A stretch of 64,000 bases of DNA, taken from NCBI GenBank assembly GCA_030264375.1, contig JASCQW010000137.1:33575657-33639656 (forward strand), given 5' to 3'. Made by a program: the position numbers. This document shows, piece by piece, positions 5,501 to 8,500 of this stretch. Each line of letters starts with the position of its first letter. Position 1 is the first letter of the stretch. This DNA comes from Carcharhinus longimanus. Its lineage: Eukaryota.

Positions 5501-8500
5501 TAGAAAATTAATATATTTAGTGAAGAGTAAAGAATTACAAATGCTTCCAAAATGTACAACTTTGGAATTGTTGGCATTGTTGCTGCATTAGTTTTAAGCC
5601 CATAAACCCATCAGAATCTGTTTCAGTTTTTAACTTCACAATGTGATCAACGTTGACCTCTTTGAAGGTTGGTTAGATTTATTTTTGGACTTGCTTTCAT
5701 CTGTCTTACTGAATTATAGGAAGGGAAGCTTTTTCTAAAAAATGAAAAGCTTTTGAGATATTGAAATTATATCTACCTTTTCATTTTATTAAATCCTGTG
5801 TATATCTCTCCTCTTCACTATCAGTTTTAATGGGCTTCTGATTTCTGATGCAAATTGGAAGTAATAAGTAAACTGTGTTGCTGTGTCACTAACATTTTAT
5901 TTTGGTATGCTATTTGTTTCTGCCCATTGACTACAGAGTGGAACTTCACTTTTATATGTGAGTAGCATGTTGTTTTAAGTCCCTGCTGTTTGGACTCTGG
6001 TAACAATTTCATGGTATATCTCACACTGGGCACATGGAACAGGATGCTATTGTTCATGTATGCAACAGATGGGACCTTTTCTCCCTGAGTTTAATAAACT
6101 TGCAGCAAACAATAGCATCAATTCGTAATTATGCCTTTCCTGTTTTGCATTGCTTTGCATGATTTTGCTGCTTACTTGCTAAAACCAGAGCAATCCTTTT
6201 CTTTGTTACAGAAGTGCTGGTCTGTACTCCAGAAAGCACTTGCAACATATTTGCATCAAGTGGAAAAAGTATCTTGTACTTTCCTGTTTATGCAATGTCA
6301 AATTATTGGAAGAGATGTAAACGTAGATGGTTATAAAACTGTCCTTTTTAGATTTGAGGCACAGCACTTGAGACTTTGAAGTTTCTAAGATGGTGGTACT
6401 CTGCCTACTCAAAAGAATCCAATTTACTTTGAGTTGATCAGCACCAGCTGCACTCTTTTTTGAATCTGCATCAGTCTGCTCACTGAACCATGATGCATTT
6501 GCATTGTTCTAGTAATTGCTTTCATTGCTCTGAAAATTGTGCAAAGATTTTGAAAATAACTTTTTTTACTATAGCAATTCATAAGCTGCTTCAGTTGGGC
6601 AAGGAAATTCTTAATCTAAACAATTTTATTGAAGGATTCAGTGAAAGTCTTGAGACTGTTACTGTAAAATAACTTGACCTTTTTCCATAGTGTATTTTTC
6701 CATTACTGTGGCAGGGAGGGAGGAGGGGAAGGAGGAAGAAGTGTTGGAGGAGCCCCTAGTGCAATATATCAAGAATTTGGTTTTTATCTAACATTTGTAA
6801 CTTTACTCCACACTCTCCAAATCTTGTACCTTTGTTACAGGAACTTCCTTCTAAAATTTGAGTACCGATCTGTTTTATCTGCCATTTAAAAATGCAAACC
6901 TCCAATGTGCCAAAGCAGGCTAAAATTGTAGAGTGGAGGATACTAATTACTTCTGCAATATTTATCCTAAATGTTTACTTGGAAATTCCTTGCCTACTTT
7001 CACAAATTGATTTAACTTTCAGGCATCATGTTCATGATCAGTTTCTGTACATCTAAGTTTTGTTCTATAATAAAGAAAGCTGCTGTGCTCTGCTATGTCT
7101 GTCTGATCTGAGACTAACTGGTAATGCATTCCTTTTTTCTCCCCTTCTCAGATGTTTGCGGTTTATTAAATAACGCAGTCTGTCTGTGTATTGAGAATAA
7201 TGAATATGCACAGTTTATGCTTGGATATTATCCATTTCACATTGTTGATGTATTGGCTCCTGTTGTGCTAGAAAAACCAGCCATGGTGGGCATATGTGGC
7301 CAATAAATATAACATCACAACCCAAATATCCTCAGTCTGTAAGACTGGGTTTTGTTTTTCATCACCTTGATTGAAATGTAGAAATTTACTTGATAAATTT
7401 ATTACCCTTTGCTTGCAGCACATTGGATTGTACATTTCAGCATGTAAATTACTAAGATTTATACATTAAGGTTTTAAATCCAAGTCCAAGGGTTTTATGA
7501 ACTTTAATATTTGATTTCAATATATTATAGCACCAAGTGATACCATCAAATGGAACACTGCAAATAAGGCCAGAGTAGACTTTGCATGCTGTAATGTGCT
7601 CCAAATAGTTTTAGATACAAGATCTAGATTCTAGATACAATTGTAGATTGAAGGTTTTTGTTCAATAAATATAATGATCCAGCTCAAGAATCCCAAATAT
7701 AGAAATCATTGACTTTTTCAATCTCCCTTCTTGAATTATCATGAGCGACTTGTATTATCAATTAAGCCGATTGGAAATTGGTTTCCTCCTGCTGTCCAAA
7801 CATGTGCAGTTTAGGTGGACTGGCCTTGCTAAATTGCCTCTAGTGTCCCAAGATGTGGAGGTTAGGGGGATTAGTGAGGTAAATGCGTGGGGTTAGTGTT
7901 AGGGCAGGGGACCTGGTAAGCTGCCCTCTGAGTTGGTGCAGACTCGAACTAAATGGCCTCCTGCACTGTATGGATTGTGATAGTTTTTCAGAAGCATACA
8001 TCTAAACAAGCTATAAGTTGGGCAGCTTATTGGTTTGTAACTGCTCATAGTTGTCTTGATAGCAAATAAGTCATCAGTAGCGCGTTGTGATGTGGGTCAA
8101 TCACTGGCTTGGTTAGGATCAGCAGACTGTGTAGTCTTGGGAATCGACCAAGCTCCGGAAATTAAGTGCATTAATGTAGTGTGTGACATAGCTGGACTTA
8201 ATGGACTTTTTTTTCTTCATGTTGCCCTGTATAAGCCCTGAACTGTGCATCTTCACTATTCTTTCATTTAACAAATGTTAGTGATATTCTATTAGATGAT
8301 TAACTGGGTACTATGTACTACAGTTAACCTTTTGAATGCTTTAAGTTTTAGTCATTTAAAAATGCCTTTGCAATCCATTGATGACTGAAAAATAGCTCAA
8401 TTTCTGGCCCTTTTAGAAGAGTGGTTACAGCAAATTAATTTCAGACTCCATAGTAATTCTAAAATGTCTGATTTTAATTAAAATATCAAGCTCCAGTTTT

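What the first reader, a model, noticed from the sequence alone, without database searches (positions are those of the whole stretch)
5887..5970. 21-nt loop-1 microexon SGTSLLY: possible link between the MYH10 R18 and MYH11 SM-B inserts
Seen: CACTAAC branch site, TGC before the acceptor, strong GTGAGT donor, downstream GCATG, frame-preserving 7 codons. Known: tetrapod MYH10 has an 18-nt loop-1 exon (SGSLLY), and smooth-muscle MYH11 has a 21-nt loop-1 exon (QGPSFAY). Inference: this exon has the MYH11 length and xGxSxxY pattern, suggesting one ancestral 21-nt microexon predating the duplications that produced these myosin paralogs, with a codon lost later in MYH10 of other lineages.
Basis: partly seen in the sequence, partly recalled or inferred. 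Interest (0 to 1): 0.7.

Follow-up and report, generated by a model that had tools for sequence, protein, structure and literature searches.

The report
Shark MYH10 loop-1 21-nt microexon
This is a genuine, already-annotated 7-codon alternative exon in the ATP-pocket loop of a shark non-muscle myosin IIB gene, and comparison with its sister genes suggests that all vertebrate non-muscle and smooth-muscle myosins inherited the same tiny exon from one ancestor.

Summary
Window 5937-5957 (+) is a 21-nt open, frame-preserving segment (SGTSLLY). It has an AG acceptor, a GTGAGT donor, a CACTAAC 45 nt upstream, and a GCATG 8 nt downstream. It lies in the 7.8-kb intron between the P-loop exon (2400-2502) and the GELE exon (10349-10441) of MYH10, 2.1 kb after the 30-nt N30 exon (3798-3827).

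It is the only AG...GTRAGT open candidate in that intron (1 of 15 AG+21+GT sites). The same peptide sits at the same place in 25 named MYH10 models from 15 elasmobranch species: SGTSLLY in sharks, SGTSMLY in rays. Those models occur with and without N30, so the exon is real and annotated.

All 44 bony-vertebrate MYH10 models with this insert carry 6 residues (mostly SGSLLY). Tyr-ended cassettes of 6-9 residues sit at the same junction in MYH9-type (QSTVLAY, sharks and rays), MYH11 (QDSSFAY, QGPSFAY) and MYH14-type genes.

A common pre-duplication origin is well supported. A 21-nt ancestral length is favoured but not settled, because chimaera and cyclostomes stayed unchecked and the length is labile. 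Interest is modest.

The parts
2400..2502 (+). Constitutive exon E5 of MYH10 (P-loop GESGAGKT ... [10 protein letters not shown]). It ends in phase 0, with donor GTAAGT.
   Evidence: sequence; tblastn with chicken MYH10 P0074, 35 of 35 identical.
3798..3827 (+). N30/B1 alternative exon, PISPKPVKHQ. It has a tandem aagCAG acceptor and a GC donor (GCAAGT at 3828-3833).
   Evidence: sequence. The same peptide is in shark MYH10 models. The N30 literature is PMC3082911.
5887..5893 (+). CACTAAC, the likely branch site. Its A at 5892 is 45 nt before the exon, and no AG lies between it and the acceptor.
   Evidence: sequence read directly. Function is inferred.
5897..5936 (+). 3' splice region: 65% pyrimidine over the last 40 nt, TGC at 5908 and 5921, acceptor AG at 5935-5936.
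   Evidence: That the UGC acts as an SRRM3/4-type signal is recalled knowledge and an inference.
5937..5957 (+). The 21-nt cassette microexon, SGTSLLY, phase 0-0.
   Evidence: The peptide is identical, at the same junction, in 14 named models from 10 shark species. SGTSMLY is in 11 models from 5 ray and skate species.
5958..5963 (+). Consensus donor GTGAGT.
   Evidence: the only GTRAGT among 15 AG+21+GT open sites in the intron.
5965..5969 (+). GCATG 8 nt into the downstream intron (AGCATG), a possible Rbfox site.
   Evidence: The motif is not enriched in the window. Its role is inferred from the mammalian N30 enhancer (PMC3082911).
6156..6161 (+). TGCATG about 200 nt downstream of the microexon, a second possible Rbfox site.
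   Evidence: Role is inferred.
10349..10441 (+). Constitutive exon E6 ([31 protein letters not shown]). It starts in phase 0.

Best explanation
Window 5937-5957 is a real alternative cassette microexon of the shark MYH10 (non-muscle myosin heavy chain IIB) gene.

When included, alone or together with the upstream 30-nt N30 exon, it inserts SGTSLLY into loop 1. Loop 1 is the flexible surface loop beside the nucleotide pocket. The insert sits directly before the conserved GELE motif.

It is the elasmobranch ortholog of the 18-nt SGSLLY exon of bony vertebrates. That exon is the second part of the 16-residue B1b insert.

It is also the paralogous counterpart of the 21-nt SM-B exon of MYH11, of the C1 exon of MYH14, and of a 21-nt exon annotated in MYH9-type genes of sharks, rays and bichirs. 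All of these most likely descend from one Tyr-ended microexon of about 21 nt. That exon would have been present in the single gene that preceded the vertebrate duplications. On this view the bony-vertebrate MYH10 exon lost one codon.

Inferred mechanism: lengthening loop 1 loosens the nucleotide pocket and speeds ADP release, which tunes the slow, high-duty-ratio IIB motor in the cells that include the exon.

Inferred regulation: inclusion is probably neural or endocrine, helped by UGC elements before the acceptor and GCAUG elements after the donor.
For: Shown in the sequence:
- All splice elements and the frame.
- This is the only consensus-donor candidate in the intron.

Shown by comparison:
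- The window's exons are about 95% identical to shark myosin-10.
- 25 of 25 insert-bearing elasmobranch MYH10 models (15 species) have SGTS[L/M]LY at this junction. The four combinations none, N30 only, microexon only and both all occur.
- 44 of 44 bony-vertebrate MYH10 models with a Tyr-ended insert (31 species) have 6 residues.
- Xenopus has TESPKAIKHQSGSLLY (PMC2139948; PMC2120948).

Paralogs:
- Pristiophorus myosin-9-like X1 and X2 differ by exactly QSTVLAY. The same insert is in 7 elasmobranch models, and bichirs have QSSVLSY.
- MYH11 has QDSSFAY (Narcine), QGPSFSY (birds) and QGPSFAY or QGPSLAY (mammals) (PMC3938199).
- The frog MYH14-like gene has a 7-residue cassette (P0166 against P0167).
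- Mammalian MYH14 has 8 residues (PMC10480317).

The 7-mers align without gaps as [QSN][GSD][TSP][SVA][LFM][LAS]Y.

Tree: MYH10, MYH9-type, MYH11 and MYH14 are separate starred clades, and MYH9+MYH11 are joined at 99. The cassette therefore lies on both sides of the deepest split.

Function, from passages read:
- A longer loop 1 gives faster ADP release (PMC13102872).
- The 7-residue insert raised Vmax about 2-fold in chicken and rabbit myosin (PMC3938199).
- C1 raises ATPase activity and motility (PMC10480317).

Regulation:
- N30 depends on downstream UGCAUG (PMC3082911).
- MYH10 is listed among hosts of SRRM3-regulated islet microexons (bioRxiv 10.1101/2022.04.02.486809).
Against: - No transcript data for the window's own species could be consulted. 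The isoform models of other species are automatic predictions.
- Length is labile: 6 (bony MYH10, shark MYH14-like), 7, 8 (mammalian MYH14, catfish myh11a) and 9 residues. The ancestral length is therefore not fixed by these data.
- For Narcine MYH11 and the shark MYH14-like gene the exon boundary was inferred by alignment only.
- The 7 Callorhinchus models seen lack the exon. One odd model (P0197) has TSSVLSV in place of RKDHNIP.
- No cyclostome or invertebrate sequence was seen.
- The set was drawn with a profile of insert-bearing sequences, so it is biased towards such isoforms.
- Kinetic effects are not universal. The 10-residue B1 insert changes activity only slightly (PMC10480317). Human SM-A and SM-B did not differ (PMC3938199).
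- GCATG is not enriched in the window, and TGC is a 3-nt motif of little information.
Confidence: 0.78

Rival explanations
1. The exon is real and homologous to R18 and SM-B, but the polarity is reversed. On this view the ancestral MYH10 exon had 18 nt, and the ACT (Thr) codon is an insertion that arose in the elasmobranch stem. The match to the MYH11 length would then be coincidence.
For: - Only elasmobranchs have 7 residues in MYH10, while all 31 bony-vertebrate species in hand have 6.
- The shark MYH14-like gene also shows 6 residues, SASIAY and NASITY.
- One-codon changes clearly happen repeatedly, giving 6 to 9 residues.
- Within MYH10 alone, one gain and one loss are equally parsimonious.
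Against: - Seven residues occur in at least one lineage of every paralog clade (MYH9-type, MYH11, frog MYH14-like, elasmobranch MYH10), and these align without gaps.
- Ser, Thr or Pro sits at position 3, where elasmobranch MYH10 has Thr. QSTVLAY has the same Thr.
- A 6-residue root needs more changes than a 7-residue root. This is my own count on the clades: at least 5 against 4.
Confidence: 0.3
2. The loop-1 cassettes of MYH9, MYH10, MYH11 and MYH14 arose independently after the duplications, by convergent exonisation in a permissive intron. They would then resemble each other only because loop 1 tolerates short Ser/Thr-rich inserts.
For: - The peptides share few residues beyond the final Tyr.
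- Mouse MYH9 shows no loop-1 splicing (PMC10480317).
- Some teleost and bird models carry unrelated-looking inserts: AMTFALQ, HTVSYS and VRSPLVYSL.
Against: - All the cassettes use the same junction, directly before GELE and in phase 0.
- They fall in the same narrow length range.
- All 77 inserted models of MYH9-type, MYH11, MYH14 and MYH14-like genes listed end in Tyr, except one Pangasius fragment.
- A hydrophobic residue sits at -2/-3 and Ser/Thr/Gly at positions 2-4.
- The cassette is present in cartilaginous and bony fishes for three of the clades.
Confidence: 0.08
3. A chance pseudo-exon that is not spliced in this species.
For: Short open AG...GT segments are common: 15 of the 21-nt class occur in this intron. 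No RNA data were available.
Against: It is the only one with a consensus donor. Its peptide is identical to the annotated exon of 10 shark species at the same junction.
Confidence: 0.02

Closest known systems
It is the extra 6 residues of the 16-residue NM IIB1b insert, as in Xenopus TESPKAIKHQSGSLLY.
   Same: It is in the same gene and the same intron, after N30 and directly before GELE, in phase 0. The peptide is SG-SLLY (PMC2139948; 10 or 16 aa in human IIB per PMC10480317).
   Different: It has one more codon (Thr at position 3), so 21 nt instead of 18. The 7-codon form was seen only in elasmobranchs. The name R18 and the human genomic details are recalled or taken from the finding. The original paper was not held.
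MYH11 SM-B (visceral or phasic) 7-residue loop-1 insert
   Same: It is 21 nt, at the same junction (between T211 and G212, before GELE). G2, S4 and Y7 are shared with QGPSFAY. The ray form is QDSSFAY.
   Different: It is in a paralogous gene in a separate clade. 4 of 7 residues differ. It has a smooth-muscle expression pattern. There is no N30-like partner exon in the MYH11 models seen.
MYH14 C1 insert (8 residues in mammals; 7 in the frog MYH14-like gene)
   Same: It sits at the same junction, ends in Tyr and is Ser/Thr-rich (ASVSTMSY, NSSAMSY). It is reported to raise ATPase activity and motility (PMC10480317).
   Different: The length is 8 in mammals and expression is broad across tissues. 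The literature pairs C1 with B1 (PMC2982113), whereas the sequences here pair it with the second MYH10 exon.
MYH10 N30/B1 exon
   Same: It is in the same intron, is alternative and neural, and lies 2.1 kb upstream in this window (3798-3827).
   Different: It is 30 nt, has a Pro/Lys-rich SPK peptide and a GC donor, and shows no sequence likeness to the microexon.

Membership tests
MYH10 (non-muscle myosin heavy chain IIB) gene | Exon-by-exon identity to MYH10 orthologs, higher than to paralogs | tested here: met
   26 collinear tblastn matches to chicken MYH10, residues 178-1358; about 95% identity to six shark myosin-10 models, 92-93% to rays, 90.7% to Callorhinchus. The loop sequence [10 protein letters not shown] is the MYH10 type. 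No joined model of the window was placed in the tree.
MYH10 second loop-1 cassette exon (R18 / B1b part) | Lies between the P-loop exon and the GELE exon, downstream of N30, and is frame-preserving | tested here: met
   The order is E5 2400-2502, N30 3798-3827, microexon 5937-5957, E6 10349-10441. All junctions are in phase 0.
MYH10 second loop-1 cassette exon (R18 / B1b part) | Peptide SGSLLY-like | tested here: met
   SGTSLLY compared with SGSLLY in 44 bony-vertebrate models and in the Xenopus peptide.
MYH10 second loop-1 cassette exon (R18 / B1b part) | Length 18 nt | tested here: not met
   It is 21 nt here and 7 residues in all 25 elasmobranch models. It is an ortholog with one extra codon.
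MYH10 second loop-1 cassette exon (R18 / B1b part) | Alternatively included in transcripts | not testable with these tools
   No RNA data were available. Indirect evidence: shark and ray isoform models exist with and without it.
MYH11 SM-B exon | 21-nt cassette directly before GELE with the pattern xGxSxxY | tested here: met
   One search compared with QGPSFAY, QGPSFSY and QGPSLAY.
MYH11 SM-B exon | Resides in the MYH11 gene | tested here: not met
   The window is MYH10. MYH11 forms a separate starred clade. It is therefore a paralogous counterpart, not a member.
SRRM3/4-dependent neural or endocrine microexons | Length of 27 nt or less, with UGC close upstream of the acceptor | tested here: inconclusive
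   It is 21 nt, with TGC at 5908 and 5921. A 3-nt motif carries little information. The motif rule is recalled, not read here.
SRRM3/4-dependent neural or endocrine microexons | Tissue-specific inclusion that depends on SRRM3/4 | not testable with these tools
   The only lead is that MYH10 is listed among islet-microexon host genes. Which exon is meant lies in supplements that are closed.
Rbfox-enhanced cassette exons | (U)GCAUG within a few hundred nt downstream | tested here: inconclusive
   AGCATG is at 5964-5969 and TGCATG at 6156-6161. The motif is not enriched in the window (119 found against 138 expected).

The most novel reading that the evidence does not exclude
A single Tyr-ended loop-1 microexon of about 21 nt was already present in the pre-duplication vertebrate myosin II gene and was inherited by all four paralogs. 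MYH9 still carries it in sharks, rays and bichirs, although mouse MYH9 shows no loop-1 splicing. The true MYH10 counterpart of the smooth-muscle SM-B and NM IIC C1 inserts is then this second exon, not the N30/B1 exon with which C1 is usually paired. The elasmobranch 21-nt form keeps the ancestral length, and bony vertebrates lost one codon.
Probability: 0.5. Interest if true: 0.5.

Novelty: new member of a known kind. Interest (0 to 1): 0.33.

Why it matters
Loop 1 is one of the two surface loops through which myosin II kinetics are tuned by splicing. The smooth-muscle tonic/phasic difference has been attributed to a 7-residue insert at exactly this junction.

Suppose MYH9, MYH10, MYH11 and MYH14 all inherited the same microexon. 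The 30-year-old B1/C1/SM-B nomenclature then mixes two non-homologous exons (N30 and the Tyr-ended one). Results on SM-B and C1 would bear on the little-studied 6- or 7-residue IIB insert rather than on B1. An 'A1' isoform of NM IIA would exist in some vertebrates.

For genome annotation the exon itself is routine. It is already modelled in related species.

Tried and rejected
1. Joined model. I did not build or search a joined E5+N30+microexon+E6 model. Window exons were searched singly. All loop comparisons used named database proteins.

2. Exon E5 alone (34 aa) was under the search tool's minimum. It was resent as a longer window reference running 6 codons into the upstream intron. That search gave mostly insert-less bird MYH10 models and was of little use for the microexon.

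3. Literature. No open paper was found for any of these searches:
   - R18 + N30
   - MYH10 + microexon + loop 1
   - SGTSLLY or 'exon R18' in a myosin sense
   - the paralog peptides
   - microexon + myosin + loop 1 (its one hit was irrelevant)
   Two older papers that might describe the human exon and the Xenopus insert were not held.

4. GCATG enrichment: none in the window.

5. Rfam over 2000-11000: no match.

6. Repeat origin: rejected. The 301 nt around the exon are unique in the window.

7. B2 (loop-2) exon. No candidate was found between 38494 and 39923 by a simple AG...GTRAG scan, and 60 of 62 named models examined lack a loop-2 insert.

8. The extra EPLCR piece of one Scyliorhinus canicula model was not found in the window.

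9. Left unchecked:
   - supplements of the islet-microexon preprint
   - unnamed Logan, JGI, ENA and metaclust hits, which were never used

10. Nothing in the window was taken for human. N runs were left alone.
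Full report
WHAT IS THERE

The window carries, on the + strand, the middle of a non-muscle myosin heavy chain IIB gene (MYH10). A chicken MYH10 protein (P0074) gives 26 collinear tblastn matches from residue 178 to 1358. Six shark myosin-10 models are each about 95% identical over these exons. Rays are 92-93% identical, Callorhinchus 90.7% and Latimeria 86.4%. The source is therefore a shark, about equally distant from all the galeomorph sharks in hand. It is not human, and nothing in it was treated as such. N runs were left untouched.

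The region of the finding reads as follows.
- Exon E5, 2400-2502, ends on a full codon with ...[12 protein letters not shown].
- The 30-nt N30/B1 exon, 3798-3827, encodes PISPKPVKHQ.
- The candidate, 5937-5957, is AGT GGA ACT TCA CTT TTA TAT = SGTSLLY.
- Exon E6, 10349-10441, starts on a full codon with [12 protein letters not shown].

- CACTAAC is at 5887-5893, with no AG between it and the acceptor.
- TGC is at 5921, and also at 5908.
- The acceptor AG is at 5935-5936.
- GTGAGT is at 5958-5963.
- GCATG is at 5965-5969. It is preceded by A, so it is not the full UGCAUG. A TGCATG follows at 6156-6161.

IS IT MORE THAN CHANCE?

In the 7,846-nt E5-E6 intron, 15 places have AG + 21 open nucleotides + GT. 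Only one has a GTRAGT donor, and that is the candidate. It is also the only open AG...GTRAGT segment of any in-frame length from 9 to 51 nt. The 301 nt around it are unique in the window, and Rfam finds nothing in 2000-11000. GCATG is not enriched in the window (119 matches against 138 expected from shuffles). That motif therefore counts only through its position.

IS IT A REAL EXON?

Exons were searched one at a time, and the loop was then read in named database proteins. The search with a coiled-coil exon and the cluster look-up returned RefSeq and UniProt myosin-10 models of cartilaginous fishes.

At exactly this junction, SGTSLLY is present in 14 models from 10 shark species:
- Mustelus asterias
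- Scyliorhinus torazame
- Scyliorhinus canicula
- Carcharodon carcharias
- Rhincodon typus
- Cetorhinus maximus
- Stegostoma tigrinum
- Chiloscyllium plagiosum
- Chiloscyllium punctatum
- Hemiscyllium ocellatum

SGTSMLY is present in 11 models from 5 batoid species:
- Hypanus sabinus
- Mobula hypostoma
- Hemitrygon akajei
- Leucoraja erinacea
- Rhinoraja longicauda

Isoforms with neither exon, N30 only, the microexon only, and both all occur. That is the pattern of two independent cassette exons. The models are automatic predictions, and no RNA data could be consulted here. Even so, the exon is evidently an annotated feature of elasmobranch MYH10, so as an exon it is not new.

RELATION TO THE 18-NT EXON

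All 44 bony-vertebrate MYH10 models in hand that carry a Tyr-ended insert (31 species) have six residues. The species are:
- Latimeria, Polyodon, Lepisosteus and Amia
- eight teleosts
- thirteen amphibians
- six turtles
- Alligator

The usual peptide is SGSLLY. Teleost variants are SGSLSY, ASSLLY, SVSLLY, SGSLFY and SGILSY.

The Xenopus 16-residue insert is given as TESPKAIKHQSGSLLY in the published correction (PMC2139948, listing) to Kelley et al. 1996 (PMC2120948, passages). A 2023 paper states that 10 or 16 residues are inserted at loop 1 of human NMHC IIB in neural tissue (PMC10480317, passages).

No mammalian or bird MYH10 model with the 6-residue insert was among the 267 named proteins. 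The search lists only its best 120 hits and was drawn with a profile of insert-bearing sequences, so absences there mean little.

THE PARALOGS

That third search used a small alignment of three stored insert-bearing segments. It also returned the sister genes.

MYH11:
- QGPSFAY and QGPSLAY in mammals
- QGPSFSY in birds
- QDSSFAY in the ray Narcine
- In the catfish Silurus, three isoforms define an 8-residue cassette, HAGQQLAY, or 9 residues with an extra Gln. The insert-less form ends ...KDTSA.

MYH9-type genes:
- Seven elasmobranch models carry QSTVLAY.
- Pristiophorus isoform X2 lacks exactly those seven residues.
- Two bichirs carry QSSVLSY.

MYH14 and MYH14-like genes:
- Mammalian MYH14 has 8 residues, ASVSTMSY-like.
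- Frog 'myosin-10-like' genes have a 7-residue cassette, NSSAMSY or TSSNMSY. Rhinophrynus isoform 2 lacks it.
- Shark 'myosin-10-like' fragments have SASIAY and NASITY. These are 6 residues if the upstream exon ends at ...DHAAP, which is inferred.

A quick maximum-likelihood tree was built from 31 motor domains (LG+G4, SH-aLRT support only). It gives these starred clades:
- MYH10, 99
- MYH9-type, 95
- MYH11, 99
- MYH9+MYH11 together, 99
- mammalian MYH14, 100
- frog MYH14-like, 98
- shark MYH14-like, 99

The deeper order of the MYH14-like groups is unresolved. No tetrapod MYH9 was in hand to anchor the MYH9 label, which rests on NCBI names and tree position.

The cassette thus occurs on both sides of the deepest resolved split. 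It is always directly before GELE, in phase 0, is 6-9 residues long, and ends in Tyr in all 77 inserted models of these paralog genes listed except one Pangasius fragment. The 7-mers align without gaps as [QSN][GSD][TSP][SVA][LFM][LAS]Y. The elasmobranch Thr falls in a column that is Thr, Ser or Pro elsewhere.

This supports one origin before the duplications. It favours seven codons as the ancestral length: by my count, four changes from a 7-codon root against at least five from a 6-codon root. The favouring is moderate only, for four reasons:
- The length has changed several times.
- The 7 Callorhinchus models lack the exon. One odd model has TSSVLSV in place of RKDHNIP.
- No cyclostome or invertebrate sequence was seen.

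HOW IT MOST LIKELY WORKS

Shown: inclusion adds 7 residues to loop 1, next to the nucleotide pocket, or 17 residues together with N30.

Inferred from passages read:
- A longer loop 1 speeds ADP release (PMC13102872, citing Sweeney 1998).
- The 7-residue MYH11 insert raised Vmax about two-fold in chicken and rabbit myosin (PMC3938199).
- C1 raises ATPase activity and motility (PMC10480317).

The expected effect is therefore a faster, lower-duty-ratio IIB motor. Against a strong effect, the 10-residue B1 insert changes little, and human SM-A and SM-B did not differ.

Regulation is inferred:
- N30 inclusion in mammals needs a distal downstream enhancer with two UGCAUG elements bound by Rbfox proteins (PMC3082911).
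- In this window the two (U)GCAUG-like motifs sit just after the microexon, 2.1-2.3 kb downstream of N30.
- MYH10 is named among hosts of SRRM3-dependent islet microexons (preprint 10.1101/2022.04.02.486809). The supplement that would say which exon is meant is closed.

COMPARISON AND NOVELTY

The closest known thing is the second MYH10 loop-1 exon of bony vertebrates. This is its ortholog with one extra codon, so it fails only the '18 nt' criterion. It works like, but is not a member of, the MYH11 SM-B exon, because it sits in a different gene. The literature read here pairs C1 with B1 (PMC2982113) and reports no loop-1 splicing in mouse NMHC IIA.

No open paper in the held library links these exons as one ancestral microexon, mentions the shark peptides, or mentions the MYH9-type cassette. 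Subscription papers and supplements were not searchable.

The exon is ordinary and annotated. The family-wide homology, the MYH9 cassette in early-branching fishes, and the re-pairing of C1/SM-B with this exon rather than with N30 are modest new points.

VERDICT

- Observation: confirmed.
- Interpretation: partly supported. Common origin is well supported. 21-nt ancestry is favoured at about 0.55-0.6.
- Interest: about 0.33.

Noticed in passing
window 3792-3833: The N30 exon has a tandem acceptor (aag|cag). That would explain the optional extra Gln (QPISPKPVKHQ) in Carcharodon and S. canicula isoforms. It also uses a GC donor (CAG|GCAAGT). Read-through protein models of pig, mole-rat and several teleosts continue with Ala (GCN) after the final Gln, which suggests the GC donor is conserved across jawed vertebrates.
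   Followed up: partly
window 9730-9774: This is a 45-nt open, frame-preserving segment, VILEYLLLKFGYTWQ, with acceptor ttgtttccAG and donor GTGAGG. It matches the odd extra piece VILEYLPLQFGYIWQ in the Mustelus asterias myosin-10 model P0121. It may be a third, hydrophobic loop-1 cassette or a conserved cryptic exon.
   Followed up: partly
database proteins P0271, P0309-P0315, P0265, P0270 (not in the window): MYH9-type genes of sharks, rays and bichirs are annotated with a 7-residue loop-1 cassette (QSTVLAY, QSSVLSY). A 2023 paper found no loop-1 splicing in mouse NMHC IIA.
   Followed up: partly
database protein P0104 (Cetorhinus 'myosin-10-like', partial): The shark MYH14-like paralog ends with an N30-like piece, LEPSQLPKHQ, after ...KDHAAP. 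This hints that the N30 exon also predates the MYH10/MYH14-like split.
   Followed up: no
database protein P0197 (Callorhinchus MYH10, UniProt A0A4W3JHU5): This model has TSSVLSV in place of RKDHNIP directly before GELE. It is either a mis-model or a trace of a chimaera loop-1 microexon that resembles the MYH9-type QSSVLSY.
   Followed up: no
window 38494-39923: The intron at the loop-2 (B2) position shows no obvious B2 exon by a simple scan. None of the elasmobranch models in hand has a loop-2 insert, whereas one teleost model (Myripristis) has a 21-residue one.
   Followed up: partly
window 10349-10363: E6 begins GELEQQ in the window, as in Mustelus and in the Carcharodon MYH14-like fragment. 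Most other MYH10 models have GELERQ.
   Followed up: no
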